The notes beneath the pieces were generated by a model. That model ran no database searches. It was given only the letters and a program-made list of their open reading frames with translations, and was not told the origin of the DNA. Source: Treponema sp. (GTDB lineage: Bacteria; Spirochaetota; Spirochaetia; Treponematales; Treponemataceae). From it: a DNA stretch of 55,020 bases. Positions 13,290-47,219 of this stretch are shown in pieces. The stretch is from NCBI GenBank assembly GCA_045630225.1, contig JAZQSR010000062.1:1-55020 (forward strand), read 5' to 3'. The position numbers and the translations under genes are program-made. Within the stretch, counting starts at the first letter, position 1. The number at the start of each line of letters is the position of its first letter.

Positions 13290-13318
13290 GTATATTACAA
13301 TTCATTTTGAAATACATT

Positions 13319-13429: not shown

Positions 13430-13515
13430 ACTCACAGAAACCCATTTACGGGCACTATGCCCTCATGCCGTTCTGTCCTTTTCCCCTCCCTGTAGACAAG
13501 CAAACTAAGGTGACT

Positions 13516-14646: not shown

Positions 14647-14658
14647 GAGAAATAGTTT

Positions 14659-15354: not shown

Positions 15355-15414
15355 ATCCAAAAAATAAATCTCGGCGACAATGAAATCGCCACATCATACA
15401 TAAGGAGAGCAGCT

Positions 15415-16617
15415 ATGTCTGACTTCAACACTATTGAAGAAGCCCTGGAGGATTTGCGTCAGGGAAAGATGATTTTGGTGACCGATGATCCAGATCGGGA
15501 AAACGAGGGAGACTTTATTTGTGCAGCCCAGTTTGCCACCACCGAAATGATAAATTTTATGGCTGTCCACGGCCGAGGCCTTATTTGTATGCCCATGTCC
15601 GTAGACTATATCCAAAAGCTCAGGCTGCCCCAAATGGTAAGCTACAATACCGACAACCACGAAACAGCCTTTACTGTTTCCATTGACCACGTGGATACCA
15701 CCACAGGTATTTCTGCCGCCGAGCGATCCTTCACTGCCATGAAGTGTGTGGAAGATGATGCTAAACCAGATGATTTCCGTCGTCCTGGCCACATGTTCCC
15801 TCTGGAAGCCAAGCGAAACGGCGTTCTTGTTCGCCCTGGTCACACAGAAGCCACCGTTGACCTGATGCGTCTGGCTGGATTGAAGGAATGCGGTCTGTGC
15901 TGCGAAATCATGAAGGACGATGGTTCCATGATGCGTACTCCTGAGCTAAAGGAATTGGCAAAGAAACATAATCTTAAGTTCATCACCATCAAGGACTTGC
16001 AAACCTACCGCAAGCGCTACGAAAAGCTAGTGGACCGCATGACTGTAACAAAGATGCCCACCAAATACGGCGACTTTGTAGCATACAGCTATGTGAACAA
16101 GTTGAACGGCGAGCACCACGTAGCCTTGGTTAAGGGAGAAATCGGTGACGGACAAAATCTCTTGTGCCGTGTCCACTCTGAATGTCTCACAGGAGATGCC
16201 TTTGGCTCCCTCCGTTGTGACTGCGGACAGCAATTTGCCGCCGCCATGACTCAGATTGAAAAGGAAGGACGAGGCATTCTCTTGTACATGAGACAGGAAG
16301 GACGAGGAATCGGACTTATTAACAAGCTGAAGGCTTACGAGCTCCAGGAAAAGGGTATGGACACCATGGAAGCAAACATTGCCCTAGGATTTGAGGCTGA
16401 CCATCGTGAATACTACATCGGAGCCCAGATTCTGCGGGACTTGGGAGTAAAAACCATGCGTCTTTTAACCAACAATCCCGACAAGATGTATCAGCTTTCC
16501 GACTTTGGCATGGAGATTACTGAACGTGTTCCCATCCAGATGGATGCCACCAAGGATGACCTGTTCTATCTCAAGACAAAGCAGCATAAAATGGGCCATT
16601 TCTTGAACTATCAATGA
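15415..16617 (+). CDS. ribBA: Bifunctional DHBP synthase / GTP cyclohydrolase II
   Basis: [20 protein letters not shown]; [28 protein letters not shown]. Confidence 0.97.
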
Positions 16618-16696
16618 GATGCACCGTGAGTCAGCAGTTGGTAGCAGCTTGTTGACTCATGGCTTTACCGTAAAACTAAACCACAAGGAGAAATAT

Positions 16697-17164
16697 ATGA
16701 AGAAATTTGAAGGATCATTAGTTGCTTCCACCATGAAGGTGGGAATTATCGTTGCTCGTTTTAATGAGTTTATTGGATCAAAGCTTTTGTCTGGAGCTAT
16801 GGACGGACTTTTACGTCACGGTGTTCAGGAAGAAAATGTTCACGTGGCTTGGGTTCCCGGAGCCTTTGAGATTCCCCTCATTGCTTCCAAGATGGCAAAG
16901 AGTGGCAAGTACGATGCTGTAATCTGCTTGGGTGCAGTTATTCGCGGTAGCACCACCCACTACGACTACGTTTGTAGCGAAGTTTCCAAGGGAATTGCTC
17001 AGGTTTCCCTTTCCAGCCAGATTCCCGTAATGTTCGGTATCCTCACCACCGAGAACATCGAGCAGGCCATTGAACGAGCTGGTACAAAGGCTGGTAACAA
17101 GGGCTACGACTGTGCCTTAGGCGCCATCGAAATGGTAAACCTCATCAAGGAAATTGAAGCATAA
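16697..17164 (+). CDS. ribH: 6,7-dimethyl-8-ribityllumazine synthase
   Basis: [34 protein letters not shown]; AAGGAG RBS before ATG 16697. Confidence 0.97.
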
Positions 17165-33608: not shown

Positions 33609-34217
33609 ATGAAAAATTCCATTCAGCAGATACAACAAGAAATGACACCTTGGATTTTACTCCTGCAAAAATATTATCAGGGCCATCTGTGTAATTTAGA
33701 TTCAGCCACTTGGGAAGAAATCATTCAGGCATTGCAAGCCGAACCTACTGCAACCATGCCAGCCATGGCAGAAGCATTGGAAGTTTTAGCTGCAACGGAA
33801 GAGCTCCAACGACAAGAAATGAAATACGATTTCAACAGCTTGTTCATTGGCCCCGACATCCTGAAGGCTCCTCCCTACGAGTCCTGTTATCTGAATCCAG
33901 AGCGCACCTTAATGCAAACAGAAACCATGCGTGTCCGTGCAAAATACCGTGAAGCCGGTCTGGAAGTTGCCAAGAAAAATGTGGAACCAGATGACTTTAT
34001 GGGCTTTGAACTGGAATTCCTGTTGTTCTTGCTCAGTAGCGAATCAGAAGCACACCACAATCTGATTCCCCAGTTCATGCAGGAACACTTGCTGGTATGG
34101 TACAAGCCCCACGTGGAAGCCATCAGGAACAATACCCACCATCCAATTTGCTTGTCCATGGCCCGTATTCTGGAAGGAATTATGGAATACTTCAACACAA
34201 TGATTAATCACGTCTAG
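33609..34217 (+). CDS. TorD/DmsD-family redox enzyme maturation chaperone
   Basis: DFNSLFIGP...APPYESCYL and EPDDFMGFELEFL signature; FMQEHLLVW. Confidence 0.92.
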   Translation: MKNSIQQIQQEMTPWILLLQKYYQGHLCNLDSATWEEIIQALQAEPTATMPAMAEALEVLAATEELQRQEMKYDFNSLFIGPDILKAPPYESCYLNPERTLMQTETMRVRAKYREAGLEVAKKNVEPDDFMGFELEFLLFLLSSESEAHHNLIPQFMQEHLLVWYKPHVEAIRNNTHHPICLSMARILEGIMEYFNTMINHV

Positions 34218-34231
34218 GAGGATTGCTAATA

Positions 34232-36430
34232 ATGCACGCTGAAATTACGAGAAGAACATTTCTAAAGGGTGCCGCAGCCACAGGTGTTTTGGCAGGATTG
34301 GGAGGAGTAACAGCATCTTCCTTTGCTGCAACAAATACTGGCAGTGGTAGCAAGAATGTCAAGAAAACTTACAACTGTTGCCCTCGCAACTGCTATGACA
34401 CCTGTTCTATCATCACCACTGTAGAAGATGGTGTTATCAAGTTTGTAACAGGAAACCCTGAGAACACCTATACCAACGGTCGCCTTTGTGTAAAAGGATA
34501 TACCTATCCTCGCCGAGTCTACTCTCCCGACCGAGTAAAATACCCCATGAAGCAAACCGCCAAGGGAAGCGGCAAATGGGAACAAATCAGCTGGGATGAG
34601 GCTTTTGACATCATCGCTAAAAAAATCATCGAAATCCGCAACGAATACGGCAACACCTTGGGTGTTTGTCTCAACAAGTACAGCGGTAACTTCAATGTCT
34701 TGACCTATGGTATTGAAGGAATGATGTCTAGCTTTGGTCACACCACCCGCATTCAGGGAACCCCCTGTTGGCCTGCTGGTATCGACAGCCAAACCTTTGA
34801 CATGGGAACCATCGTTAACTCCGACCCAGAAAGCTTTGCCCTGTCCAAGATGATTATTGTTTGGGGAGCAAACCCAGCCTGGTGTTCCGTTCACTCCATG
34901 CACATTATTCAGAAGGCCAAGGAAAACGGCTGTAAGGTTGTATTCATTGACCCAGTAATGACAGCTTCCGCCTCCAAGGCAGATGAATTTATCGAAATCA
35001 AGACAAGTACCGACGGTGCCTTGGCCTTGGGTATGTGCCGCTACATCCTGGACAACAACCTTCAGGACGATGCTTGGATGGCAGCCAACTCCATCGGCTA
35101 CAAGGAATTCATCGATTACGTTAACAAGAACATCACCGTAGAATGGGCCGCAGAAAAAACTGGTGTTCCCGCCAAGGTTATTGAACGCTTGGCTTATGAA
35201 TATGCCACCACTCAGCCTGCCGCCATCTGGATTGGATACGGAATGCAGCGCCACGCCAACGGTGGAGCCAACGTTCGTGCCATTGACGCCTTGGCTGCCC
35301 TGTGCGGAAACGTCGGAAAGCTAGGAGCCGGTGCAAACTACGCTCAGTTGGATAGCTGGGGATTCAACTATGCCGCCATGGTGGATTCTCCTGCCAACAC
35401 CGACAACGTAGCTTCTGACCGTTACATCAACATCAACAACTTTGCTGCAGAATTGCTGAACATCAACAACAACCTAAAGAATCCTCCAGTAAAATTGTTG
35501 TGGGTAGCTTGCCGTAACCCCATGAGCCAGGACCCCGAAGCTGGCTTGGTAGAAAAGGCATTCAAATCCGTAGACTTGGTTGTTACTGTTGACCAGTTCT
35601 TTAACAAGTCTGTGGAAATGTCCGACATCGTACTGCCCGTTTGTACCATCTTTGAAACTTGGGGACTCCACGCCAGCTACTGGCACTACTGGATGAACGG
35701 AAATGAGCCTGCCATTGAGCAGATGTACGAGTCAAAGTGCGACGTGGAAATTGCCATGGGCTTGGCCAAGAAGATGAATTCCATTCAGCCTGGTTCTTGT
35801 ACCTTCATTACCGACAGAACTATGGAAGAATGGTGTGCACGAGAAATGTCCGATGCCTTCAAGCAGAAATTTGGCTTCTCCGACTGGAAGGAAATTTTCC
35901 AGAAGGGAACCGTAAAGGTAAAGGGCTACGATGCTGCTTGGGCAGACGGCAAGTTCCGTACTCCCTCTGGCAAGTACGAATTCTACTCCCAGAAAGCAGC
36001 CTCCACTGGTAACCACCTCTTGCCCGTATACCGAGAGGCTCTGCAAAACGACGATCCTGTATACAATATCAGAGCTATTACTCCCCACTGGAAGTATGGA
36101 CTCCACTCTCAGTTCCAGAACTTGGACTGGATGGCAAATATTCACAACGAACCCTTTGTGGAAATCAACCCTGTTTTAGCAGCAGAAAAAGGCATTAAGC
36201 ATGGAGATGCAGTAAAAGTATCTAGCTCCATCGGTCAGCTGATACTGAAGGCAAAGATTACAGCAAATGTTCCCAAGAATGAGGTTGTTATCTACGAAGC
36301 TTGGTACAAGGACAATCCTTTCAACGTAAACTACATTGTCAAGGCAATTCCTGCCGACATGGGAGCTTACGCCACAGGACAGCCCGGTGTTTCTTTCCAC
36401 GATACCTTTGTAAGTGTGGAAAAAACATAA
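34232..36430 (+). CDS. Tat-exported bis-MGD molybdopterin oxidoreductase catalytic subunit (DMSO reductase superfamily, Cys-ligated, substrate unknown)
   Basis: Twin-arginine ITRRTFLK; N-terminal CPRNCYDTC...LCVKG Fe-S site; ISWDEA; GTPCWPAG (likely Mo-ligating Cys); WGANP; SDIVLP; molydop-binding C-domain. Confidence 0.93.
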   Translation: MHAEITRRTFLKGAAATGVLAGLGGVTASSFAATNTGSGSKNVKKTYNCCPRNCYDTCSIITTVEDGVIKFVTGNPENTYTNGRLCVKGYTYPRRVYSPDRVKYPMKQTAKGSGKWEQISWDEAFDIIAKKIIEIRNEYGNTLGVCLNKYSGNFNVLTYGIEGMMSSFGHTTRIQGTPCWPAGIDSQTFDMGTIVNSDPESFALSKMIIVWGANPAWCSVHSMHIIQKAKENGCKVVFIDPVMTASASKADEFIEIKTSTDGALALGMCRYILDNNLQDDAWMAANSIGYKEFIDYVNKNITVEWAAEKTGVPAKVIERLAYEYATTQPAAIWIGYGMQRHANGGANVRAIDALAALCGNVGKLGAGANYAQLDSWGFNYAAMVDSPANTDNVASDRYININNFAAELLNINNNLKNPPVKLLWVACRNPMSQDPEAGLVEKAFKSVDLVVTVDQFFNKSVEMSDIVLPVCTIFETWGLHASYWHYWMNGNEPAIEQMYESKCDVEIAMGLAKKMNSIQPGSCTFITDRTMEEWCAREMSDAFKQKFGFSDWKEIFQKGTVKVKGYDAAWADGKFRTPSGKYEFYSQKAASTGNHLLPVYREALQNDDPVYNIRAITPHWKYGLHSQFQNLDWMANIHNEPFVEINPVLAAEKGIKHGDAVKVSSSIGQLILKAKITANVPKNEVVIYEAWYKDNPFNVNYIVKAIPADMGAYATGQPGVSFHDTFVSVEKT

Positions 36431-36479
36431 GGCATTGCAATGAATGGATTTGTTTTAGTCAACGTTAGGAGGATTGAGA

Positions 36480-37037
36480 ATGAGTAAGCGACTTGGCTTT
36501 GTTTCAAATATGGAACGCTGCGTAGGATGCAATGCCTGCGTCATAGCTTGTAAATCATATCACGGACTTGAACCAGACATGAAACGTCGAAAAGTACGAG
36601 ACTTGGACGACAATCTGGTGGGTAGTCCTGTTCGGGCATATTTGTCCACCTCTTGCCAGCACTGCGAAGACCCTTCTTGTATGAAGGCTTGTCCCACCAG
36701 TGCCTACAGCAAGCGGGAAGATGGAATTGTATTGCACAACAGAAAGGTTTGTATTGGTTGTAAGATGTGTCTGTGGGCCTGCCCCTACGAAGCACCTACC
36801 TTCAATACTGTTACCAAAAAGATGGACAAGTGCGACATGTGTCGAGAACGGCTTGACCAGGGTGAACAGCCCATTTGCGTAGCCTGCTGTCCAATGGAAG
36901 CCTTGAGAATAGTAGATATCGACACCTTGGATGAGGCAACCTTGGTAAAAGATGTGGATGGATTCCCAGTTTCAAGCATTACAAATCCCAACCTGAGAAT
37001 GAAAATGCCACAATCTGTAAAGCAGGTAAGGAGGTAA
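36480..37037 (+). CDS. DmsB/NrfC-type four-cluster [4Fe-4S] electron-transfer subunit
   Basis: CVGCNACVIACK, CQHCEDPSCMKACP, CIGCKMCLWACPY, KCDMC...PICVACCP. Confidence 0.94.
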   Translation: MSKRLGFVSNMERCVGCNACVIACKSYHGLEPDMKRRKVRDLDDNLVGSPVRAYLSTSCQHCEDPSCMKACPTSAYSKREDGIVLHNRKVCIGCKMCLWACPYEAPTFNTVTKKMDKCDMCRERLDQGEQPICVACCPMEALRIVDIDTLDEATLVKDVDGFPVSSITNPNLRMKMPQSVKQVRR

Positions 37038-37040
37038 CCC

Positions 37041-37853
37041 ATGGGTGATTTAAGTTTGATTTTGGGAACAGTGCTTTCCCAAGTTTCTATCGGTACATTT
37101 ATCACAACCTTTGTGGTGGCCCACCTTTTGAAGAAGGTTGACGGACAAATTGCATTTAAGTCAATTCTGATAGCCTTTATCATCGGTGTTTTAGGAATCG
37201 GAACTATGATTATGCACTTGGGTCATCCCCTTTTGGCTATGAACGCCTTCTTTAATCTGGGACGTTCTTGGCTTTCACGGGAAGTCCTCTTCTACGGTGG
37301 CTTTTTGGGATTGGCATTCTTGTATCTGGTATGCAGCAAGCTGAATAAGGAAGGTCTACTGAAACCACTGGGAATCGTGGCCTGTATTTTTGGAGTTTGT
37401 GCTGTATTTGTAACTAGCATGATTTACACCGTACCTTCCATTGTGGCTTGGAATAGTGTGAATACACCTCTTTCCTTTGCTCTTACTGCTATCATGATTG
37501 GTATTCCCTTGGGAGTGTACCTTACCAATGCATCAGAGCTGGTACCAACAGCATCTCGCCTGTTAGCTACTTTTACTTTAGTAGCCATCACCACAACCTT
37601 GGTGCATACTTCAACCCTGGCATCAAGTGTTGCTGCTGGAGCTGGAAGTGCCCACCTTTTGCTCACCAGTCCCTTGTTCTGGATGCGATTGGTTCTCTTG
37701 TGCCTCGTCTGTATCATTTCCATTGTGGCAGCGATTCGGTACAAGGGAAAGTCAAACTGTCCCTTTAATTACCGCTTAATAGCCATCATCTTGTTGATTG
37801 CAGCAGAATTTATTGGACGTACCTTGTTCTTAGGAACCATCGTACGAATGTAA
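37041..37853 (+). CDS. DmsC-family membrane anchor / quinol oxidase subunit
   Basis: TVLSQ..IG, HLGHPLLAMNA..NL..SWLSRE, EFIGRTLF; about 8 TM helices. Confidence 0.92.
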   Translation: MGDLSLILGTVLSQVSIGTFITTFVVAHLLKKVDGQIAFKSILIAFIIGVLGIGTMIMHLGHPLLAMNAFFNLGRSWLSREVLFYGGFLGLAFLYLVCSKLNKEGLLKPLGIVACIFGVCAVFVTSMIYTVPSIVAWNSVNTPLSFALTAIMIGIPLGVYLTNASELVPTASRLLATFTLVAITTTLVHTSTLASSVAAGAGSAHLLLTSPLFWMRLVLLCLVCIISIVAAIRYKGKSNCPFNYRLIAIILLIAAEFIGRTLFLGTIVRM

Positions 37854-37931
37854 CTAGATTACGTGCTGGAGTTTATCCCCCCTTTGTGGTATACTCCAGC
37901 ACATTCTTTTTTTGGGGAAAATCATCTCGTC

Positions 37932-38261
37932 ATGTTTAACATTGGATTTGGAGAACTTGTTCTTATACTACTGATTGCCTTTCTTGTGGTTGGCCCCAAG
38001 GATTTACCCAAGGTTGGGCGAACTTTGGCAAAAGTTGTACGAGAATTACGGAAATTCATGAACGACGTGAAAAGTTCTGTAGACTTAAAGGACGAAGAAT
38101 CCTACATCAAAGAAGTGGCCCAAGGAATTGCAGAGACAAAATCAACCATTCAGGAAATGAATCCTGTTTCCATCGTCAAACAAGAATTGGCCTCCCTAGA
38201 TCCCTTAGCTGATGTTACATCCGAGTTGAATGCCATCAAAAAAGATATACACTCATTGTAA
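37932..38261 (+). CDS. tatB: Twin-arginine translocase subunit TatB
   Basis: MFNIGFGELVLILLIAFLVVGPKDLP..GR. Confidence 0.9.
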   Translation: MFNIGFGELVLILLIAFLVVGPKDLPKVGRTLAKVVRELRKFMNDVKSSVDLKDEESYIKEVAQGIAETKSTIQEMNPVSIVKQELASLDPLADVTSELNAIKKDIHSL

Positions 38262-38272
38262 AGAGGTAATAT

Positions 38273-38458
38273 ATGAGAATTGGAACAACTGAATTGCTTC
38301 TTATCTTGGCACTGGCCATCCTGCTGTTTGGTGGCTCCCGACTTGCGGGATTGGGCAAGTCCTTGGGAAAGGGAATCAAGGAATTCCGCCAAGAAATGAA
38401 AGATGGCTCAAAAGAAGAAAAGACTGAAACAAAAGAATCAAACGGTAGCTCCGAGTGA
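38273..38458 (+). CDS. tatA: Twin-arginine translocase subunit TatA
   Basis: IGTTELLLILALAILLFGGSRLAGLGKSLGKGIKEFR. Confidence 0.94.
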   Translation: MRIGTTELLLILALAILLFGGSRLAGLGKSLGKGIKEFRQEMKDGSKEEKTETKESNGSSE

Positions 38459-39243
38459 AAAAAGGCGGAGTTCCCAAGGAAAAAAAATCAAAAGACAAGG
38501 AACCCTACGAGCTTGAGGCAAAACCTCTCCTAGACCACCTAAAGGATTTACGGCGACTGCTGTTTTTTTCTCTGGGAGTGATACTTGCCTGCTTCCTTGT
38601 GATTTTCACCCTCTACTCAAAAGAACTTGTCCAGTGGATTTCACAGCCCATTGTAGACATGAATATCGACATTATTTACATCGATGTTTCTGAGGCATTT
38701 ACCTCTCAGCTAAAATTGTCCTTTATTGCAGGGGCAGTTTTAGCAAGTCCAGTGGTGTTTGTGGCCATTTGGCTTTTTATCCGACCAGCCCTGTACAAAA
38801 ACGAACGCTTTGCCTTTGGCTTTATGACACTTTTTGCCCTATTACTTTTTATAGCGGGCGTGGTGTTTGCCTATTTTATGGTGTTTCGGCTGGCCATAAA
38901 CTTTTTTATTGTTTCTGGAGAAAATATCGCCACGCCTATGGTGTCCTTGGAACGATATGTTTCCTTTTTGTTTTCCTTTCTCCTACCCTTTGGAGTCATG
39001 TTCGAGACCCCAATTCTAGTGATTGTGCTGACTCGCATTGGCCTAGTAAATGCAAAAATTTTAAGTAAGGCTCGAAAATTCATTATTTTGGGAGTCTTCG
39101 TGGTGGCCGCAATTTTGACGCCCCCAGATGTTATTTCCCAAGTGTTGCTGGCCTTGCCCCTGTTGGTTTTATTTGAAATAAGCATTATCTTGTCTCGATT
39201 TGTGCGGCCACGAAAAAAAGAGCCTCTGGAGGAAGCTGTATGA
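38455..39243 (+). CDS. tatC: Twin-arginine translocase subunit TatC
   Basis: HLKDLRR, EAF...LK, W.FI.PALYKNE, FGVMFETP, AAILTPPDVISQ. Confidence 0.96.
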   Translation: MKKGGVPKEKKSKDKEPYELEAKPLLDHLKDLRRLLFFSLGVILACFLVIFTLYSKELVQWISQPIVDMNIDIIYIDVSEAFTSQLKLSFIAGAVLASPVVFVAIWLFIRPALYKNERFAFGFMTLFALLLFIAGVVFAYFMVFRLAINFFIVSGENIATPMVSLERYVSFLFSFLLPFGVMFETPILVIVLTRIGLVNAKILSKARKFIILGVFVVAAILTPPDVISQVLLALPLLVLFEISIILSRFVRPRKKEPLEEAV

Positions 39244-40259
39244 AACATACTTTAACTACAAAACTTGTATTTGTGATGGCCCTCCTTATGGTGCTAGTAA
39301 CCTTAGGTTGTGAAAAAAAATCTGAAATTCAGCCTGTTACCACAGCACCACAAAAAAAATTGAAAATCGCCTTGGTTCAACTGAGTCAAAATCCCTCTTT
39401 TACCGACATGCAGGAAGGCTTTATTGCAGGAATGCAGGAGCTAGGATATGACAACGACAAAGTGGAATACCTTCAGTATGATGCAGGAGGCAGTATTTTT
39501 ACCCTGCACCACATCCTTAACTCCTTGGAAAGCCAGAAGGTAGACTTGTTGGTGCCACTGGTAACCTCTGTAACTCAGGCAGCAGTCAGCAAGGAACTCG
39601 GCATTCCCATTATCTTCATCTCCGTAACTGATCCTGTGGAAGCAGGAATTATGGCATCCCTCCAAACTCCCGACAAAAATGCCACAGGTACCTGCAATGT
39701 AGTTCCCATGGAAGAATTATTTCTACTGGCAAAGGAGTTAACTCCCCACATCCGTTCTGTAGGCATTCTCTATGATCCAAGCCTTCCCAATTCAGTAATC
39801 ACCGTTAAAAGAGCAAAGCAATACCTTGGTTCAGCAGGATTTGTGGTGGCAGAATCCATCGTTACCAATTCCTCAGAAGTTCAGTCTGCAACTCGTACCT
39901 TGGCAACAGTGGCAGATGCAATTTACGTTCCCATTGACTCCACCATTCTCAGTGCCATGAGCCAGGTGGTAGATATTGCCCTGCAACAGGGAAAGCCTGT
40001 ATACGGAAGTGCTCCTTCCATGGTGGCTTCTGGTGCCTTGGCTAGTGTAAGCGTCAGTGAATGGGAAACTGGCCGACAAACAGCAGCCCTTGCCCACCAG
40101 TTTTTTGAAGGAACTCCCATTGAACAAATCCCTGCAAAAGTTGTGGATAACTTTTTGTACACCGTCAATGGAGAAACGGCACAGGCCCTCACTATTACAA
40201 TTCCGCCCCAGACTGACACCCCCATTCAACTGGTAGATTCATCTGCTGGAACAAGGTAG
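39240..40259 (+). CDS. ABC transporter substrate-binding lipoprotein (ABC_sub_bind / TrpX-like aromatic-ligand family)
   Basis: Lipobox TLG|C; IPIIFISVTDPVEAGI..S..P..NATG; GILYDP; DAIYVP.DST. Confidence 0.85.
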   Translation: MKHTLTTKLVFVMALLMVLVTLGCEKKSEIQPVTTAPQKKLKIALVQLSQNPSFTDMQEGFIAGMQELGYDNDKVEYLQYDAGGSIFTLHHILNSLESQKVDLLVPLVTSVTQAAVSKELGIPIIFISVTDPVEAGIMASLQTPDKNATGTCNVVPMEELFLLAKELTPHIRSVGILYDPSLPNSVITVKRAKQYLGSAGFVVAESIVTNSSEVQSATRTLATVADAIYVPIDSTILSAMSQVVDIALQQGKPVYGSAPSMVASGALASVSVSEWETGRQTAALAHQFFEGTPIEQIPAKVVDNFLYTVNGETAQALTITIPPQTDTPIQLVDSSAGTR

Positions 40260-40265
40260 TAGTTC

Positions 40266-41135
40266 ATGAGTCTTTTTGCAGGAGCTGTTCAACAGGGTTG
40301 TTTTTACGGAATTGTTTCTGTAGGAGTATATCTTACCTTTCGGATTTTACGAATTCCAGATTTAACTGCAGATGGAGCTTTTACCCTTGGTGGAGCCACC
40401 AGTGCAAGCCTCATTCTGGCAAATGCTCCTGTTTTAGCCCTGCCCCTTTCCTTTGTGGCTGGCTGTGGAGCTGGCTTGGTAACGGCCTTTTTGCAAATCA
40501 AGCTACGAGTGGCTCCCATTCTTGCAGGATTTCTTACCATGTCTGGCTTATACACCGTCAATCTAGCAATTCAGAGGGGAGCTCCCAATCTTTCCTTGCT
40601 ACGGACAAAAAACTTATTCAACATTCTTCCCTTTCTGTCAAAAAAGGAAAGTCAATTTTTGTGGCCAATCTTATTGTGCCTCCTGGTATTTTTATGTTTC
40701 ACCCTGTTTTTGCACACAGAAAAGGGCCTGGAAATCCGAGCCGCTGGCAATAATCCAAAGATGGCCCAAGCCCAGGGAATCAATGTGGCACAGGCAAAAA
40801 CCTTGGCCCTCATGCTGGCCAACGGTACCATTGCCCTGGCAGGAAGCCTTGCAAGCCAGTATCAAGGTTACACCGACATAAACACAGGCTCTGGTTCCCT
40901 GTTGGTGGGGCTGGCAGGAGTGATTTTAGGAGAAGCAATCTTTCCTACTAGTCGCATTAGCTGGAGACTTGCCAGCATTGGAGCAGGAGCCATTTTGTAC
41001 CAGCTCCTTTTGGCAGTTGTAGTTCGCTATAGCTTTTTGCCCGCCTACACTTTTAAGCTGGTGGCAGCAGTACTCATTGCCTGTACCATCGGTGTAAGCC
41101 AGATCAAGAAAACCTCCCAAAATGACGAATTATAA
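40266..41135 (+). CDS. ABC transporter permease (BPD_transp_2 / TrpY-like)
   Basis: GVYLTFRIL..PDLTADGAFTLG, GLEIRAAGNN..MA..QGIN, Q.QGY.DI..G.G. Confidence 0.88.
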   Translation: MSLFAGAVQQGCFYGIVSVGVYLTFRILRIPDLTADGAFTLGGATSASLILANAPVLALPLSFVAGCGAGLVTAFLQIKLRVAPILAGFLTMSGLYTVNLAIQRGAPNLSLLRTKNLFNILPFLSKKESQFLWPILLCLLVFLCFTLFLHTEKGLEIRAAGNNPKMAQAQGINVAQAKTLALMLANGTIALAGSLASQYQGYTDINTGSGSLLVGLAGVILGEAIFPTSRISWRLASIGAGAILYQLLLAVVVRYSFLPAYTFKLVAAVLIACTIGVSQIKKTSQNDEL

Positions 41136-41162
41136 TTCATACAGAACAAAGTAATAGAAGGA

Positions 41163-42089
41163 ATGACCAACGTGTACCAGCGACTCAACTTTAAGCTCTC
41201 AATTCAAATGACAGCCCCTCACACTTGGCCAGCTTCTGTTATACCAGTGCTTTTTTCTGGTGCCATTGTTTTTCGTCAAACCCACACCTTAAACTGGAGG
41301 CTGTGGATTTTTCTGATTCTCATCAGCATATTGATGCAAAGTGCAGCCAACATCTTTAACGATTATTTTGACTTGTTGCGGGGAACAGATTCCACCGAGG
41401 ACTTTGTAGAACCTGATGATGCTGTTTTAGTCTACAACAAGATTCCTCCCCAGCAGGCTCTGTTTTTGGGCATTGGAACCATGGTGGCCGCATTGGCACT
41501 TTCTATCTATCCCATTATGGAAGGTGGATTTTTAGTTTTGGGCATTGGACTCCTTGGTGGCATTGTTTTGCTAGCTTATTCTGCCGGAACAACACCAATT
41601 TCCAGCATTCCCTTTGGAGAGGTGGCATCTGGAGTTACCATGGGAACCTTTATTCCACTAGCCTGTGTCACCGCCTTTACGGGGAAATTCTATCTTCCCG
41701 TAGTGCTAGACAGCTTGCCCATTACCTTAGGCATTAGCCTCATGATGATGACCAACAACACCTGCGACATCGAAAAAGATTTGCGAGTACAACGCTCCAC
41801 TCTGCCCATTTTGATGGGAAGAGCAAATGCAAGAACATTGTATCGAGTGTTACTTTTAACCTGGCTTTTTCTTTTGGGTGGTTATGCTGCCTTCCGTTTT
41901 CCTGTACAGGATTCTTGGACATGGCCCCTTCTTCTGTGTTGCATTTTTTTGGCAATCCTCTGTGGTACGACTTTAATCAAGCAGCTGAAATTCGACTTGA
42001 ATCCACCCTGCCGCCCCAAAGCCATGAAAAACATTGCCGCCCTCAACGGATTGCTGGGGCTGTTCTACACCCTGTGGTTGGTGCTCTAA
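41163..42089 (+). CDS. menA: UbiA-family prenyltransferase, MenA/DmkA-like (DHNA polyprenyltransferase)
   Basis: PHT.PAS..PV, ANIFNDYFD..RGTD, GE, NNTCDIEKD..V.R.TL Asp-rich motifs; multiple TM helices. Confidence 0.85.
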   Translation: MTNVYQRLNFKLSIQMTAPHTWPASVIPVLFSGAIVFRQTHTLNWRLWIFLILISILMQSAANIFNDYFDLLRGTDSTEDFVEPDDAVLVYNKIPPQQALFLGIGTMVAALALSIYPIMEGGFLVLGIGLLGGIVLLAYSAGTTPISSIPFGEVASGVTMGTFIPLACVTAFTGKFYLPVVLDSLPITLGISLMMMTNNTCDIEKDLRVQRSTLPILMGRANARTLYRVLLLTWLFLLGGYAAFRFPVQDSWTWPLLLCCIFLAILCGTTLIKQLKFDLNPPCRPKAMKNIAALNGLLGLFYTLWLVL

Positions 42090-42103: not shown

Positions 42104-42637
42104 TTAGGCTGGTTTTCCATTCAATTCTTTTTGCATAAAATCTAGCACCTGTAAAAACACTTCCTCTCGGTTTTCCAGAGAAAGGCGAAAGCACCGACAA
42201 TGCTGGTGGCCCCGCACTTGGTTCAAAAAAGCAGCATCCTTGTGCTTTAGGGCAATAATTCCCACCTGATTCCGATTCAAAAGCTCCAAGACAGCGGCAC
42301 AAAAGCTTTCTGACACTCGCTCCAAAACACCAAGCTCATCTAGCAGCACAAGATGACCAGCAGGAACAGGCTGGGAAAGCAGTGGAGCAACGTCATCAAA
42401 GGCTTCTTTCCGCACCTCTAGCTGCTTTCTGTTACAATAGGCCACCAGTTTTCGCTCTCCCTCTTGGCCGTAGCCACGGAGGTGCTGCAAGTACACAGGA
42501 AAGCCACCAGCTTCTTCCTCCAGCGTATCACCTTTACGAGTAACAAGTCCCCACACTGGCAGTGATAACTCTTGCACCACCCGCTGAACAAGGCTACTTT
42601 TTCCCACTCCAGGCTCACCTACAATCACTGCATACAT
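42104..42637 (-). CDS. P-loop nucleoside triphosphatase (NTPase_1/THEP1-like)
   Basis: GEPGVGKS Walker A, LVLLDELG.LE Walker B, ENR near the C-terminus. Confidence 0.85.
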   Translation of the reverse strand: MYAVIVGEPGVGKSSLVQRVVQELSLPVWGLVTRKGDTLEEEAGGFPVYLQHLRGYGQEGERKLVAYCNRKQLEVRKEAFDDVAPLLSQPVPAGHLVLLDELGVLERVSESFCAAVLELLNRNQVGIIALKHKDAAFLNQVRGHQHCRCFRLSLENREEVFLQVLDFMQKELNGKPA

Positions 42638-42654
42638 AGCGGCACCTCAAAAAC

Positions 42655-43737
42655 TTACTGACAAAAGGCGAATTCCGTAAGACTGGCATACTGGCTTTCT
42701 GTCAGCTCACATCCGTAAAACAGCTTGTAGTACTGGCAAATTTCTTCTTGAACATCATAGTCACAATATTCTGGATATAAGACAGCAGTTATCCAAATCA
42801 TTCCTAAAAAACGCTGAACTGAAGGTGGCATTCCCATCCAGTTATGGGGAGCACTGGGAACCTCCAGATAACGTCCAGCTGCAATGCCTGCGATTTCATT
42901 CCAAGAAGCCATTTTTGCAACATCATGATAAATACTTCCTGCATCAAAAATCACAAAGTCTGGATTCCACAGGGCAATTTGCTCCATTGTCACCTCGTTT
43001 CCCAGTCCCTTAGACAGAGGATTGTCCACTACGGCCACATTATCCGTCAACATATCAATCAATTCTGCATGGTAGGAATTTTTTGCCAATACGTTCAGTC
43101 CCTGTTCACCTACCACAAAAAGACTGCGAACCTTCTTGTCCCCCACCTTTTCCATAATCTGCATCGTACGCTGATAAGTTGTTTCACAGAATTGAGCCAA
43201 GGCTTCACATCGCTCCTGCTTGCCAAGCAATTCCCCCAGCACACGATAGGTTTTTCCCATGTCCTGAAGGGAAGTTACAACGTAGACAGAAGGAATTCCT
43301 GTTTGTTTTTGCAATATGTCCAAGTCTTCCACGGTGGTTTTCTTGATTTCACCAATGTCGATAATGCAATCGGGCTCAGAAAAGGCCAATTCTTCCACAT
43401 TCAAGGAAACGCCCCCGTAAAGCTGACCAAAATAAGGCAAGTCTCGGTATTTTTGTGGAATAAATTCCTTGGCACTGTCACTCCATCTGTTTGTAAGGCC
43501 AGTAAACATGTCTGGATCGATGGAATACAAAATGATTTGAGCCAGTGGCCCCGCAGGAATGATTCTGGTAATTTTTTTGGGCAGCTCCACCTGACGGCCA
43601 ACATCATCAACATAGATTCGACTTTCCACTGACGTAACAGCTTTTTCTGCAGGACTCTTTTTTGCACAAGAAAGCAGAGAGCCAGCTAAAATCACACAAA
43701 CAAAACACAGCAACAGCTTACGGCTTTTCATCATCAT
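42655..43737 (-). CDS. Class III (Fe-siderophore/B12/MolA-type) ABC substrate-binding lipoprotein
   Basis: Lipobox LLS|C; D..GRQVELP.KI.RI, NVEEL...EPD, EVTMEQI..WNPD.VI, W...PPS..RFLG. Confidence 0.88.
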   Translation of the reverse strand: MMMKSRKLLLCFVCVILAGSLLSCAKKSPAEKAVTSVESRIYVDDVGRQVELPKKITRIIPAGPLAQIILYSIDPDMFTGLTNRWSDSAKEFIPQKYRDLPYFGQLYGGVSLNVEELAFSEPDCIIDIGEIKKTTVEDLDILQKQTGIPSVYVVTSLQDMGKTYRVLGELLGKQERCEALAQFCETTYQRTMQIMEKVGDKKVRSLFVVGEQGLNVLAKNSYHAELIDMLTDNVAVVDNPLSKGLGNEVTMEQIALWNPDFVIFDAGSIYHDVAKMASWNEIAGIAAGRYLEVPSAPHNWMGMPPSVQRFLGMIWITAVLYPEYCDYDVQEEICQYYKLFYGCELTESQYASLTEFAFCQ

Positions 43738-44515
43738 GTTCTCCTTTTATTCCAGCTACCACAGGAACTGCAACCCGCACTCCATGTACAGGGCAAACCT
43801 CCACATTCACACCATACAAAGAGGAAATCAGTTGAGAAGTATACACTTCCTTTGGCTCACCACAAGCCAACACCTGCCCTCCCTGCAAGGCGAGAATACG
43901 AGTAGAATACAAGTAAGCTTGGTCAGGGTCATGGGTAGACTGCACCACACAGAACCCATCCTGCACCAAGTTTTGCAGGGTTTGCATTACACGGATGCGA
44001 TTTCCAAAGTCCAGATTGGCACAGGGCTCATCCAGCACCAGAAGCTTTGCCTTTTGAGCAATACCTCGAGCTATCAAAACGAGCTGACGTTCACCGCCAC
44101 TAATGGAGCCATAGCCTCTGTCCCGCAAATGGGCAATTCCCAGCCGTTCCAGAGCAAAATCTACCTGTTCTTGCTGCTCCTTTCCCGGCAGAGAAAATTG
44201 TCCCATTTGGGCAGTAGTTCCCATAAGTACCATGTCCTGCACGCTAAAATTGAACACGGGATTATGAGACTGAGGAATATAGGCAATGTGACGAGCCAAC
44301 TGGACTGAAGAATATTCACAGATAGCCCTTCCCTTCAAAAGAATTGAACCTGAACTTGGCTTAAGCAAGCCTAAAATGCAACGAAAAAGCGTACTTTTTC
44401 CCACACCGTTGGGTCCCAAAATAGACAGGAAATCTCCCCCCTGAGTGGAAAAACTTACATTTCGCAAAACATCGTGGTTTCCGTAGGAAAAACAAAGCTT
44501 TTCAACCTGAATCAA
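43718..44515 (-). CDS. FecE/BtuD-type ABC ATP-binding protein
   Basis: GPNGVGKST, AYIPQ, ISGGERQLVLIAR, LDEP.ANLDFGN, STHDP. Confidence 0.94.
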   Translation of the reverse strand: MIQVEKLCFSYGNHDVLRNVSFSTQGGDFLSILGPNGVGKSTLFRCILGLLKPSSGSILLKGRAICEYSSVQLARHIAYIPQSHNPVFNFSVQDMVLMGTTAQMGQFSLPGKEQQEQVDFALERLGIAHLRDRGYGSISGGERQLVLIARGIAQKAKLLVLDEPCANLDFGNRIRVMQTLQNLVQDGFCVVQSTHDPDQAYLYSTRILALQGGQVLACGEPKEVYTSQLISSLYGVNVEVCPVHGVRVAVPVVAGIKGEHDDEKP

Positions 44516-45528
44516 TGGCGTTCCCCCTCTCCTAAAATCAAATATAAAAAGAAGGGTATTCCAATAAATGAGGTGAGAATACCGATGGGAATTTCTGTAG
44601 CCAAAAGATTTCTGGAAACGGAATCCACCGCCAGCAAAAAGCTACTTCCCAGCAGCATGGAGGCAGGCAGCAGATAGCGATAGTTGTTGCCCACCAAACG
44701 GCGGGTGATATGAGGAATCACCAAGCCCACCCAACCGATAACTCCACTAACAGAAACGCTAGCAGCAGTAATCAGCGTAGCACAAATAATCACCAAAGAA
44801 CGGAGTCGTTGCACGTTGATTCCCATAGTTCGAGCTTCCTCCTCTCCCAGAGTTAAAAGATTTATCCGCCACCGCAGCAAAAACAAGGGTACCAACCCCG
44901 CCATCATGGGAATCAGAACAAAGAGCACATCCTTGGACGTGGAGCCGTTCAAGCTTCCCATGAGCCAATAGGTAATGGCAGGAAGCTGGTCATCGGGGTC
45001 TGCCACCATTTTGATAAAGGAAGTGCCAGAAGAAGCCAGAGACCCCATCATAATTCCCGCCAAAATCAAGCCCAAAAAGCGTTTTCCCCTGGCTCGTGAA
45101 CCAACATACATCACCGCCATCACAGCCAAAATACTAAATCCAAAGGCAAACACCACAATCATGGTTTTCCCAAGATTCAGCAGGATGGCTAAAGCTGCTC
45201 CAAAGGCAGCCCCAGAAGAAGCTCCCAAAATATCAGGGGCCGCCATGGGATTGTGAAACACACCCTGATAGGCCGACCCAGCAGCAGTGAGACTACAGCC
45301 CACCAAGCAGGCCAGCACAATTCGAGGGAGACGATGCTGAAGTAGCAAGGATTCTTGCACCGGCTTCCAAAATGGTTCTATGTCTACAACCTTGGAGATG
45401 AGAATACCAAACAATTCCTTGATGCCAATGGGATATCGCCCCAGTGACACCGAAATCAAAATGCAGGCCACAAGCACTGCCACTAAAATGAGGATAATAG
45501 AAGTGTAGGAAAGGTGTTTTTTTGCCAT
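44512..45528 (-). CDS. FecCD/BtuC-family ABC permease
   Basis: RLPRI, YQGVFHNPMAAPDILGASSGA, WLMGS, LG.EEA..MGI, GVIGWVGLVIPH, EIPIGILT. Confidence 0.94.
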   Translation of the reverse strand: MAKKHLSYTSIILILVAVLVACILISVSLGRYPIGIKELFGILISKVVDIEPFWKPVQESLLLQHRLPRIVLACLVGCSLTAAGSAYQGVFHNPMAAPDILGASSGAAFGAALAILLNLGKTMIVVFAFGFSILAVMAVMYVGSRARGKRFLGLILAGIMMGSLASSGTSFIKMVADPDDQLPAITYWLMGSLNGSTSKDVLFVLIPMMAGLVPLFLLRWRINLLTLGEEEARTMGINVQRLRSLVIICATLITAASVSVSGVIGWVGLVIPHITRRLVGNNYRYLLPASMLLGSSFLLAVDSVSRNLLATEIPIGILTSFIGIPFFLYLILGEGERH

Positions 45529-45627
45529 ACCCAAACAAGACGCTCCATGTAAAAAAGCTTGTCCTGCGGTAAAAAACGCAAAACAAGCCTCCGAGCCCTA
45601 ATTTGGGTAGATAAGACGAGTCATTAA

Positions 45628-45737
45628 CGTTTCCTTCTCACAGTGGAAGGCGGTGCCGTTTCCAGCACAACCCCGTGACCCTTTTGGTCAGGCTGTAGTC
45701 CATGGCCCAAGGCTTTAGAAACTAACAGCACGGAAAT
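45628..45737 (-). ncRNA. Moco RNA motif (putative molybdenum-cofactor riboswitch), P3-containing type
   Basis: Minus strand TTTCCGTGCTG...CTAAAGCC..GGCCATGG..CAGC-TGACC(AAAAG)GGTCA-GGGTT-GTGCTG(GAAA)CGGCAC-GCCTTCC...GAGAAGGAAA reproduces the Moco motif layout; sits in a molybdoenzyme/mobA locus. Confidence 0.85.
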
Positions 45738-45746
45738 CTTACATCC

Positions 45747-45775
45747 AAGATACCACCAGTTTATGTACCTGTCAA
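45747..45775 (-). promoter_or_regulatory. Sigma70-type promoter driving the Moco motif and ABC operon
   Basis: Minus strand TTGACA-17 bp-TATCTT with a TG extension, about 10 bp upstream of the RNA motif. Confidence 0.7.
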
Positions 45776-45822
45776 TATGCAAAAACTTTCCCCTGTGAGC
45801 CAAAATTTGTATATTTAATCTC

Positions 45823-46464
45823 ATGAATACTACAAAAACTACTGCTATCATCCTTGCAGGAGGAAAAAGTAGCCGATTCGGTGCAGATAAAACCACTTTG
45901 CCCTGGGGCAATCGATTAATAATCCATCATTTGGTAGAAGCCTGTAACAAATTTGCAGATGAAGTGTTAATTATCAGCAACCAGCAGAATAAATTTGCCA
46001 TAGAAGGGGTTCGTGAGATTTCCGACATTTTCAAGGAAAAAGGCCCTTTAGGCGGTTTTCATGCTGGAATGGAAGCAGCTCGCTACGATAAAATTTTTTT
46101 TACCGCCTGCGATATGCCCCTGTTCAACCTGGAGCTGGCTCAAAAGCTTCTTGCACAGCTTGACCACGGGGCAGAGGCTGCAATTCCCCGCCACGGAGAA
46201 AGAACGGAGCCCCTATTTTCCGCCATCCTTCGCCCCGCAGCCTTAAGCAAGGCCACCGCCATGCTCCAGCAGGATAACAGACGATTGATGGATTTTTTCC
46301 GACAGCTGAACACTAGCTACCTGGAATGTCAGGAAGAGGATTTTCAGTTCAATCTGAATCGGCAGGAGGATTATCAAGCCTTTCTCGCCGCCAACACCAC
46401 AAACCTTTCTTCAAACCTCAGCAACGAGAAAGGTAATACAAAAGGAGATACACACAATGAATAG
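45823..46464 (+). CDS. mobA: Molybdenum cofactor guanylyltransferase
   Basis: IILAGGKSSRFGADK, D....GPLGG..AG, ACDMP, EPL, NLN..ED. Confidence 0.92.
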   Translation: MNTTKTTAIILAGGKSSRFGADKTTLPWGNRLIIHHLVEACNKFADEVLIISNQQNKFAIEGVREISDIFKEKGPLGGFHAGMEAARYDKIFFTACDMPLFNLELAQKLLAQLDHGAEAAIPRHGERTEPLFSAILRPAALSKATAMLQQDNRRLMDFFRQLNTSYLECQEEDFQFNLNRQEDYQAFLAANTTNLSSNLSNEKGNTKGDTHNE

Positions 46465-46819
46465 AGATTTTATGATGATGCTAGGAAATATGTTTGGTCA
46501 CAAGGACAACCAAGGCTTTTCCCAAAGCACCATGCAGGAACTGGCTCAACGGCTCCAAACAGAAAAGGATTTTATCCTTCTGGATGTACGCACCCACGAA
46601 GAATTTGAAGAAGGCCACATTCCTGGAGCCATTTGCATTCCCAACGAAACAATCGCAAGCGAGGCTGCCACAAAGCTCCCCAACAAGGAACAGCTGATTT
46701 TTGTTTATTGCCGCAGCGGAATGCGGAGCATGATGTCCGCCAATTTTTTGGCAAGCCAGGGCTACACCAATGTGGTGGAATGTGGCGGGATTATGGATTG
46801 GCACGGGAGCTTGGAATAG
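46457..46819 (+). CDS. Rhodanese-domain sulfurtransferase (cytoplasmic)
   Basis: ILLDVRTHEEFEEGHIPGAICIP, VYCRSGMRS active-site loop, GGIMDW. Confidence 0.92.
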   Translation: MNRDFMMMLGNMFGHKDNQGFSQSTMQELAQRLQTEKDFILLDVRTHEEFEEGHIPGAICIPNETIASEAATKLPNKEQLIFVYCRSGMRSMMSANFLASQGYTNVVECGGIMDWHGSLE

Positions 46820-46844
46820 TTTTTATAACACATACGGAGGAAGA

Positions 46845-47219
46845 ATGAAAAAAATTATATACTTATTAGCAACTGCAGTATTGTTCATCTCCTGTTCAAA
46901 AGGACAATTCACTCAAATTTCCATGGAAGAGCTAGCTCAGCGTCTCCAATCAGAGTCCGATTATATTTTGCTTGATGTTCGCACTCCAGAAGAATTTTCC
47001 ACTGGCCACATTCCCGGAGCCATCTGCATTCCCAATGAAAGTATCGGGAAACAAGAACTTCCTACTTTGCCAAACAAAAAACAACGGATTTACATCTATT
47101 GCCGAAGCGGAAGCAGAAGTAAACATGCTGCCGACAAGCTCCTAGATCTGGGCTACACAAATCTTGTGGAAGCTGGTGGAATTATGGACTGGCAGGGGGA
47201 TATTGAAGTAGGACGGTAA
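46845..47219 (+). CDS. Rhodanese-domain lipoprotein
   Basis: GGAGG RBS; lipobox FIS|C; LDVRTPEEF..GHIPGA, IYCRSGSRS, GGIMDW. Confidence 0.92.
   Translation: MKKIIYLLATAVLFISCSKGQFTQISMEELAQRLQSESDYILLDVRTPEEFSTGHIPGAICIPNESIGKQELPTLPNKKQRIYIYCRSGSRSKHAADKLLDLGYTNLVEAGGIMDWQGDIEVGR

What the first reader, a model, noticed from the sequence alone, without database searches (positions are those of the whole stretch)
42104..47219. Moco-riboswitch-controlled BtuCD/FecCD-type importer with NTPase, divergent from mobA and rhodaneses: candidate molybdenum-cofactor salvage system
Seen: a Moco RNA motif (45628-45737) leads an operon of a type II ABC importer (permease, ATPase, 360-aa class III lipoprotein SBP) and a THEP1-like NTPase. 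It is back-to-back with mobA and two rhodaneses and adjacent to a bis-MGD enzyme. The window has no moaA/C/D/E, mogA, moeA/B or modABC. Established: MobA acts only on pre-made Mo-MPT; type II importers usually carry bulky cofactors (B12, heme, siderophores), although Haemophilus MolABC carries molybdate. Inference: this cell may import intact Moco or MPT from its community and perform only the last maturation steps, with the NTPase possibly standing in for MobB. I know of no characterised bacterial Moco importer.
Basis: partly seen in the sequence, partly recalled or inferred. Interest (0 to 1): 0.85.

Follow-up and report, generated by a model that had tools for sequence, protein, structure and literature searches.

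The report
Likely molybdenum-cofactor salvage importer
A gut spirochaete assembly that encodes a molybdenum enzyme but shows none of the genes for making its cofactor puts a molybdenum-cofactor-type RNA switch in front of a vitamin-B12-type importer, which likely takes up the ready-made cofactor from neighbouring microbes, a route I found no report of for bacteria.

Summary
Observation confirmed. A Moco RNA (Rfam 57 bits), with a predicted promoter and terminator, leads permease, ATPase, class III lipoprotein and THEP1-type NTPase genes, back to back with mobA, in an island with a Tat-exported bis-MGD enzyme. The 90%-complete Treponema-like genome shows no moaA/C/E, moeA, mogA, modA or tupA. 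Of 80 genomes carrying this binding protein, 76 have molybdoenzymes (background 36 of 168 Clostridia) and 41 loci carry the RNA, yet 50 show neither moaC nor moeA; 49 of those 50 also lack modA, while 48 contain recA. The genes are under purifying selection there. Molybdate would be useless to such cells, so uptake of Mo-molybdopterin is the best reading (about 0.65); no binding was shown. Against: the permease's closest structure is MolB, proteobacterial sister genes sit beside moeA and molybdate-binding genes, 30 of 80 carriers can make Moco, and 8 of 9 background orphan genomes lack this importer. The NTPase is probably not a MobB stand-in, and the rhodaneses are probably bystanders. The scan reached the same idea earlier on other DNA (33 notes); none matched this protein by sequence. 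It makes the open question of orphan molybdoenzymes testable.

The parts
45747..45775 (-). Predicted sigma-70 promoter (10 of 12 matches, extended -10) placing the transcript start at the 5' end of the aptamer
   Evidence: consensus match only (2 sites found, 0.7 expected in shuffles)
45616..45747 (-). Moco RNA motif (RF01055), P3-containing type
   Evidence: 57.4 bits, gathering 36; covariation in 14 family copies, 17 of 25 pairs with a two-sided change (structure derived from that alignment)
45551..45598 (-). Predicted expression platform: hairpin of about 15 bp (-20.7 kcal/mol, 45551-45592) ending in a U-run; 45588-45598 can instead pair with the aptamer 5' strand (-11.2 kcal/mol)
   Evidence: folding prediction; the simple terminator scanner did not flag it
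44512..45534 (-). Type II ABC permease (FecCD/BtuC fold)
   Evidence: best solved relative HI1471/MolB E 2e-67, then HmuU 2e-48, BtuC 2e-35
43718..44515 (-). ABC ATPase
42655..43737 (-). Class III substrate-binding lipoprotein, 360 aa; proposed Moco (Mo-MPT) receptor
   Evidence: ligand inferred
42104..42637 (-). THEP1-type NTPase (PF03266), a conserved operon member of unknown role
   Evidence: present in 47 of 80 related loci; fused to NUDIX in L066, L069, L070
45823..46464 (+). MobA-like nucleotidyltransferase, divergent from the RNA
   Evidence: dN/dS about 0.09-0.10
46457..46819 (+). Single-domain rhodanese 1 (probably a bystander)
   Evidence: in 2 of 80 related loci
46845..47219 (+). 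Rhodanese 2, with a lipoprotein-like N-terminus from the second Met (probably a bystander)
33609..34217 (+). TorD/NarJ-type chaperone for the client enzyme
   Evidence: PF02613, 2.7e-28
34223..37853 (+). Client: Tat-exported bis-MGD (DMSO reductase family) catalytic subunit, Fe-S subunit and DmsC anchor; the only PF00384 gene in the assembly
   Evidence: dN/dS about 0.04; substrate unknown
37863..39243 (+). tatB-like and tatC genes for export of the client
39240..42089 (+). TrpX-like binding protein, permease and menA (same island; link to quinone supply is speculative)

Best explanation
This is a type II ABC importer under a Moco-type RNA switch that likely takes up ready-made molybdenum cofactor (Mo-molybdopterin) for a cell in whose assembly no genes for making it were found. 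Shown: the RNA, the genes, the missing pathway in the assembly, and the co-occurrence pattern. Inferred steps: (1) the surface lipoprotein captures Mo-MPT, or a nucleotide form, released by other microbes in the anoxic gut; (2) permease and ATPase move it in; (3) MobA would add GMP and form bis-MGD, and the TorD-type chaperone would load it before Tat export (standard E. coli chemistry, recalled); (4) when cofactor accumulates, the aptamer is predicted to favour the terminator at 45551-45592 and shut the importer off. The NTPase is a conserved helper, possibly in trimming or handing on the imported cofactor; its role is open.
For: Own genome: no hit for MoaC, MoeA_N, MoaA C-terminus, MoCF_biosynth, MoaE, modA or PBP_like_2 (each rings in 10-13 of 14 controls); no orthologue by tblastn of E. 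coli MoaA-E, MoeA, ModA or of clostridial TupA and MoeA-like proteins. Of 80 carriers: DMSOR or XDH family in 76 of 80 against 36 of 168 background Clostridia; moaC 27 of 80, moeA 26 of 80, neither 50 of 80, of which 46 have a molybdoenzyme. modA in 26 of 30 synthesis-positive but 1 of 50 synthesis-negative carriers. recA in 48 of those 50. Synthesis-negative share among enzyme-bearing genomes 46 of 76 against 9 of 36 in background. None of the 126 background genomes without a moeA, XDH or DMSOR hit has a strong match to the binding protein. RNA upstream on the same strand in 41 of 80 loci, 29 of them synthesis-negative; Rfam confirms 9 of 15 tested and more. RNA or a Mo-enzyme or maturation gene in 60 of 80 loci. 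XdhC kept in 5 of 5 synthesis-negative genomes tested. dN/dS 0.05-0.18 for importer, mobA and client. In E. coli a moeA deletion derepresses the RNA, so molybdate alone is unlikely to be its signal (PMC2408646, section 10). MolA-type proteins form a separate clade at 22-23% identity.
Against: No binding or transport data. The permease's closest solved relative is MolB, the molybdate importer, and MolA is among the top five Foldseek entries (TM 0.68, 18%). The sister clade in Alphaproteobacteria lies beside moeA/glp, Mop/TOBE, modA-like genes and msrPQ, which suits molybdate or a Mo-chelate. 30 of 80 carriers have synthesis genes, and H. influenzae keeps both mod and mol for molybdate (PMC4245157, passages), so modA alongside does not exclude molybdate. 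Only 1 of 9 background orphan genomes has a strong match, a distant one (G224, 29%; 11 candidates scored per genome). 4 of 80 carriers show no DMSOR or XDH gene; AOR and sulfite-oxidase families were not searched. moa, moe and mod genes often share a contig, so their absences are not independent, and carriers are related, so the Fisher p-values overstate support. Completeness of the 80 carriers was not given.
Confidence: 0.65

Rival explanations
1. It is a MolABC-like importer of molybdate, tungstate or a small Mo-chelate. Carriers without moa/moe genes are then incomplete assemblies, or use the metal by an unrecognised route.
For: Closest solved permease is MolB. Proteobacterial sister loci lie beside moeA, Mop/TOBE, modA-like and modD genes. 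Moco RNAs are known upstream of molybdate transporters (PMC2408646, passages). Mod and mol coexist in H. influenzae. In L030, L039 and L040 the locus also holds modABC and a MoeA-like gene.
Against: 45 of 80 carriers have molybdoenzymes but no moaC, moeA or modA hit, and recA is present in 48 of 50 synthesis-negative genomes. The pattern holds in a cultured strain (G051) and in four separate spirochaete assemblies. The MolA cleft motifs are not kept. dN/dS is about 0.1 where molybdate could not be used.
Confidence: 0.16
2. It imports a metal-free pterin precursor (MPT or cPMP), to be completed inside the cell.
For: Association with moeA and modA in the sister clade and in L030/L039/L040; G053 and G074 have moeA but no moaC hit; a MobB-MogA fusion is kept in G048 and G051.
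Against: The window's genome and 49 of 50 synthesis-negative carriers show neither MoeA_N nor ModA, and the window's genome shows no MoaE. In E. coli a moeA deletion, which still makes MPT, does not repress the RNA.
Confidence: 0.07
3. These cells make Moco with unrecognised enzymes, or their enzymes work without it (the two readings of Peng et al. 2018), and the importer brings in something else needed for maturation, such as an iron or other metal chelate.
For: Peng et al. raised both options for 305 orphan-molybdoprotein bacteria (PMC6147048). Class III proteins mostly carry metal chelates. 8 of 9 background orphans have no strong match to this importer.
Against: Orphans keep MobA or XdhC, which act on Moco. 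The RNA is conserved upstream in 29 synthesis-negative carriers. No candidate synthesis gene recurs in the 80 loci. No cobalamin or other cofactor riboswitch leads the operon in the 15 loci scanned with Rfam.
Confidence: 0.09
4. The island is a decaying relic acquired without its biosynthesis genes.
For: The spirochaete copies nest inside Oscillospiraceae-rich Bacillota in the tree, which suggests transfer (quick tree, midpoint root, not tested further). No expression was shown.
Against: All frames are intact and dN/dS is 0.04-0.18 out to dS 0.3-0.8; the arrangement is kept in L001-L003.
Confidence: 0.03

Closest known systems
BtuCD-F vitamin B12 importer under a cobalamin riboswitch
   Same: Type II ABC fold, class III binding protein, control by an RNA that senses the cofactor; salvage logic in non-producers (established knowledge).
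   Different: Binding protein 20% identical to E. coli BtuF and far from it in the tree; the RNA is RF01055; the proposed cargo is Moco; an NTPase travels with the operon.
MolABC (HI1470-1472) molybdate/tungstate importer of Haemophilus influenzae
   Same: Mo-linked type II ABC importer; MolB is the closest solved permease (E 2e-67); same binding-protein fold (TM 0.68).
   Different: 22-23% binding-protein and 36-38% permease identity to MolA/MolB-type proteins, separate clades; MolA cleft motifs not kept; occurs mostly in genomes that show no way to use molybdate.
Moco RNA motif regulons (Regulski et al. 2008, PMC2408646)
   Same: Same RNA class, P3-containing form.
   Different: In the passages I read, the regulated genes are moa, molybdate or tungstate transporters and Moco enzymes in producers; here it controls a type II importer in an apparent non-producer.
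Dietary Moco uptake by C. elegans (10.1101/2020.10.08.332338; listing and start of abstract only)
   Same: Precedent that intact Moco can pass from bacteria to another organism.
   Different: Animal, protein-bound Moco; no relation to this transporter is shown.
PDB 4PAG (Sulfurospirillum deleyianum ABC solute-binding protein)
   Same: Closest solved binding protein (27% identity, TM 0.80).
   Different: No ligand is named in its title; its gene context was not examined.

Membership tests
Moco RNA motif (RF01055) | Score above the Rfam gathering threshold over the whole model | tested here: met
   57.4 bits against 36, positions 1-135
Moco RNA motif (RF01055) | P3 stem, marking the Moco rather than the Wco type | tested here: met
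   P3 pairs in the alignment; by length, 32 of 41 family copies have room for P3 and 9 do not
Moco RNA motif (RF01055) | Moco-dependent repression of downstream genes | not testable with these tools
   Only a predicted terminator/antiterminator
Type II ABC importer (BtuCD/FecCD class) | FecCD permease, ABC ATPase and class III binding protein in one operon | tested here: met
MolABC molybdate importer | Binding protein orthologous to MolA | tested here: not met
   22-23% identity; MolA-type rows (L134, L136) lie outside the 90-row clade (97% SH-aLRT, quick tree, long branches flagged) that holds this protein
MolABC molybdate importer | MolA oxyanion-binding residues (His47, Gln48, Arg264, Gly300, Tyr301, Tyr217; recalled, paper not held) | tested here: not met
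   Of the five positions that could be aligned only the Gly is kept; the sixth was not placed
MolABC molybdate importer | Binds and transports molybdate or tungstate | not testable with these tools
   needs ITC and uptake assays
BtuCD-F cobalamin importer | Cobalamin riboswitch upstream and BtuF orthology | tested here: not met
   No cobalamin RNA in the window; 20% identity to BtuF; BtuC models below cut-off
MobB | PF03205 MobB domain in the NTPase | tested here: not met
   It is PF03266 NTPase_1 and lies beside true mobB in 7 of 9 mobB loci
MobA (molybdenum cofactor guanylyltransferase) | Equivalog score above cut-off | tested here: inconclusive
   TIGR02665 112.8 against 151.85; MocA model only 61.5
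Orphan-molybdoprotein organisms (Peng et al. 2018) | Molybdoenzyme genes without the Moco pathway, mostly without Mo transporters | tested here: met
   the assembly is 90.1% complete, so absence is not proven

The most novel reading that the evidence does not exclude
Intact molybdenum cofactor is a cross-fed vitamin of the anoxic gut. This family of type II ABC importers, spread by gene transfer across Bacillota, spirochaetes and others, is a dedicated bacterial Moco transporter that lets Moco auxotrophs run molybdoenzymes, with NUDIX, phosphoesterase and NTPase partners trimming MGD/MCD back to Mo-MPT for re-tailoring by MobA or MocA. Its proteobacterial sister operons, including the E. coli one with a TonB-dependent receptor and modD, do the same across an outer membrane.
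Probability: 0.4. Interest if true: 0.9.

Novelty: new variant of a known kind. Interest (0 to 1): 0.74.

Why it matters
Peng et al. 2018 counted 305 bacteria with molybdoenzyme genes but no Moco pathway. In the Discussion I read they offered pseudogenes, unsequenced genes, new synthesis enzymes or Mo-independent forms, not uptake. A Moco importer would answer part of that question, add Moco to the cross-fed cofactors of gut communities, and change how genome models treat xanthine-dehydrogenase-type and respiratory reactions in Oscillospiraceae and others. It names a binding protein to assay and a cultured strain (Pseudoflavonifractor capillosus ATCC 29799) to test. A protein that binds and shields free Moco would also be a useful biochemical tool.

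Tried and rejected
NTPase as a MobB substitute: rejected. Rhodaneses as part of the system: rejected for lack of conservation (2 of 80; L003 is cut off near that point). Missing genes as an assembly artefact: largely rejected by the recA control, a cultured strain and four spirochaete assemblies, but not excluded for any single genome. MoeA_N alone as a marker of synthesis: rejected, because G042, G043, G046 and G063 have moaC without it, so 'moaC or moeA' was used. The XDH-like gene of the own genome (C11:7337-9475) was not counted as a client: it is divergent (E 2.6e-36) and the assembly shows no XdhC or MocA. Expression: RNA run X5 covers genes and intergenic DNA evenly and is held as contigs, and X19 barely covers the locus, so neither shows transcription. 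The ESM Atlas gave only generic PF01497 clusters. PMC3766115 (passages) named no such transporter. The careful binding-protein tree did not finish; the quick tree is reported. The primary MolA paper was not held. G173 could not be scored in three of four background searches and was left out; G014 and G055 were dropped from the background (170 to 168) because they are among the 80 carriers. No complex prediction was run, since the tool cannot score a cofactor as partner. No family-wide spirochaete survey was run. Literature searches that returned no bacterial Moco importer: (open-licence PMC and bioRxiv only); one preprint speculates in a sentence about molybdopterin uptake via T11SS (10.1101/2024.09.26.615229, passages). 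I did not open the supplements of Peng et al. (organism lists) or Regulski et al. (gene contexts), which may list loci of this kind.
Full report
Observation. The RNA is real: RF01055 at 45616-45747 on the minus strand, 57.4 bits against a gathering score of 36, with P3. A promoter-like site ends at 45747. Between aptamer and permease lies a predicted hairpin of -20.7 kcal/mol ending in a U-run (45551-45592), whose base can instead pair with the aptamer's 5' strand (-11.2 kcal/mol). The simple scanner missed this terminator, and the leader as a whole folds only modestly better than shuffles (z -1.6). By eye, most of the 41 family leaders printed show a hairpin and U-run. The operon is permease, ATPase, class III lipoprotein, THEP1-type NTPase; mobA and two rhodaneses diverge from it. 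Facing it is an island with a TorD-type chaperone, a Tat-signal bis-MGD enzyme, Fe-S and DmsC subunits, tatB/tatC, a TrpX-like binding protein with permease, and menA. The nearest named relatives are Treponema and Spirochaetaceae gut assemblies at 96, 86 and 67%.

The genome. In the 2.6-Mb assembly (90.1% complete, 291 contigs) there is no match to MoaC, MoeA_N, the MoaA C-terminal domain, MoCF_biosynth, MoaE, modA or PBP_like_2. tblastn with E. coli MoaA-E, MoeA/B, ModA/B/E and clostridial TupA, ModA and MoeA-like proteins gave only distant paralogues: radical-SAM hits at 24-26%, a ThiF-like hit at 35% and short generic permease hits. There is one DMSOR-family gene and one divergent XDH-like gene with no XdhC, MocA or MobB.

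Relatives. A scan of species-representative genomes found 360 relatives and returned the best 80; all counts below are on those 80. Molybdoenzymes: DMSOR family in 34 and XDH family in 64, either in 76. In an even draw of Clostridia with minimum completeness set to 95, either family is in 36 of 168 (G173 unscored, G014 and G055 removed). Synthesis: moaC in 27, moeA in 26, neither in 50, and 46 of those 50 have a molybdoenzyme. modA follows synthesis, not the importer: 26 of 30 against 1 of 50. recA is in 74 of 80 and 48 of the 50, so gaps of that size cannot explain the pattern, although moa, moe and mod often share a contig. In the background all 29 moeA genomes have moaC, and 9 of 36 enzyme-bearing genomes lack both, against 46 of 76 carriers. 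Five synthesis-negative carriers tested further lack MoaA; their MoCF_biosynth hits are CinA-like by my reading of the sequences, plus a MobB-MogA fusion in two. Five tested keep XdhC. One, G051, is the cultured P. capillosus ATCC 29799, with four XDH-family genes and one DMSOR-family gene; G038 has 11 DMSOR-family hits. Synthesis-positive and negative carriers are interspersed in the tree, so this is not one event. dN/dS is 0.05-0.18 for the importer genes, about 0.1 for mobA and 0.04 for the client.

The RNA travels with the operon. A model built from 14 copies finds it upstream on the same strand in 41 of 80 loci; 13 of the 41 were training rows, and 68 loci have more than 700 nt upstream. 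Rfam independently confirms 9 of 15 loci tested and finds it in 9 of the 19 carrier genomes. Loci without it often have xdhC (16 loci in all), mocA, yqeB/yqeC or mobA; 60 of 80 have the RNA or such a gene. In E. coli the RNA is derepressed in moeA, mogA and modC mutants but not in a mobA mutant (PMC2408646, section 10). If that holds here, only imported Mo-MPT could switch it in a cell without MoeA.

Is it MolABC? The model (pLDDT 88) is a class III protein, closest to 4PAG (TM 0.80, 27%), with MolA fifth (0.68, 18%). Proteins with the MolA motifs from Pasteurella and Klebsiella records (assigned by the QHQ motif seen in 3psa) are 22-23% identical and form a separate clade in binding-protein and permease trees (quick trees, long-branch warnings). 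The MolA ligand residues are recalled, not read. So it is not a MolABC member, but it is a cousin: MolB is the closest solved permease.

Results against my reading. The sister clade is also Mo-linked but in a way that suits molybdate: of seven alphaproteobacterial and E. coli records opened, five alphaproteobacterial ones lie beside moeA/glp, Mop/TOBE, modA-like genes or msrPQ, one had no annotation, and the E. coli one has modD and a TonB-dependent receptor. A TonB receptor would suit a bulky cargo better than an oxyanion (inference). H. influenzae keeps both mod and mol (PMC4245157, passages). 30 of 80 carriers can probably make Moco. The importer is rare: 5 strong matches in 170 Clostridia including the centre genome, and only 1 of 9 background orphans. 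One other orphan, G238, has the RNA before an ECF S-component-like gene and mobA, so other routes may exist. Four carriers show no DMSOR or XDH gene. Nothing here shows binding or expression.

Accessory genes. The NTPase is in 47 of 80 loci and beside mobB in 7 of 9 mobB loci, so it does not replace MobB. It is fused to NUDIX in three loci, and a calcineurin-like phosphoesterase sits between RNA and permease in five. These hint at trimming of nucleotide forms of the cofactor, but neither has a homologue in the window's genome, and this is speculation.

Mechanism and odds. Uptake of Mo-MPT or a nucleotide form 0.65; molybdate, tungstate or Mo-chelate 0.16; unknown synthesis or Mo-free enzymes with another cargo 0.09; metal-free precursor 0.07; relic 0.03. 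It works like BtuCD-F under a cobalamin riboswitch and is a member of neither BtuCD-F nor MolABC by the tests above.

Novelty. Ten searches of open-licence PMC and bioRxiv returned no bacterial Moco importer; subscription papers and the supplements of PMC6147048 and PMC2408646 were not seen. Peng et al. (passages and Discussion) leave 305 orphan bacteria unexplained. [quoted passage not shown] C. elegans uptake was seen as listings only. The scan's own notes hold 33 similar proposals in at least 22 genomes, of which 8 were shown, mostly ECF or sugar-type transporters; they are unchecked AI notes, were read after my genome counts, and none matched this protein by sequence. Verdict: a new variant of a known kind of machine with a probably new cargo; interest 0.74.

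Noticed in passing
window 39240-42089 (+): TrpX-like binding protein, permease (no ATPase in the locus) and menA inside the respiratory island, while the assembly shows no menC, menD or menF and only crotonase-level menB hits. This may be salvage of the quinone precursor DHNA alongside Moco. TrpX-like ABC genes also lie near the importer in L011, L013, L018 and L021.
   Followed up: partly
L097/L147 (G238:C2:13892-15650) and L117/L148 (G025:C76): Moco RNA before an ECF S-component-like gene, a small membrane-anchored protein and mobA, in genomes without moaC/moeA hits: a second candidate uptake route.
   Followed up: partly
L149 (G138:C37:28500-45000): Large Moco-RNA-led operon with sulfite-oxidase-fold lipoproteins, DUF364, FmdE, a distant type II ABC set, an ECF set, a phosphodiesterase and mobB, in a genome that has moaC and moeA.
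   Followed up: partly
L135 (E. coli plasmid-collection record NZ_CP031350.1, 4884-10894): Sister operon: binding protein, permease, ATPase, methyltransferase, modD and TonB-dependent receptor; probably the prrA-modD-yc73-fepC cluster (name recalled; one search found two papers, listings only). Cargo unknown; worth testing for a Mo species.
   Followed up: partly
L066:8708-9655, L069:11488-12471, L070; L101 and L123: THEP1-type NTPase fused to NUDIX beside mobB, or to a methyltransferase upstream of Moco RNAs.
   Followed up: partly
G000:C11:5915-9475 (-): Divergent xanthine-dehydrogenase-like three-gene set with no XdhC or MocA in the assembly; possibly a Moco-free form.
   Followed up: partly
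window 13317-17164 (+): FMN riboswitch (107 bits) before four genes that read as ribD, ribE, ribBA and ribH (names by my reading); ordinary.
   Followed up: no
   Followed up: no
G000:C272:255-5672 (+): Paralogous type II ABC operon with two tandem binding proteins, closest in the permease tree to a Treponema saccharophilum copy beside nif-like genes.
   Followed up: partly
L096 / L145 (G048, G051): MobB-MogA fusion kept in Pseudoflavonifractor-type genomes with no moaA, moaC, moeA or modA hit.
   Followed up: partly
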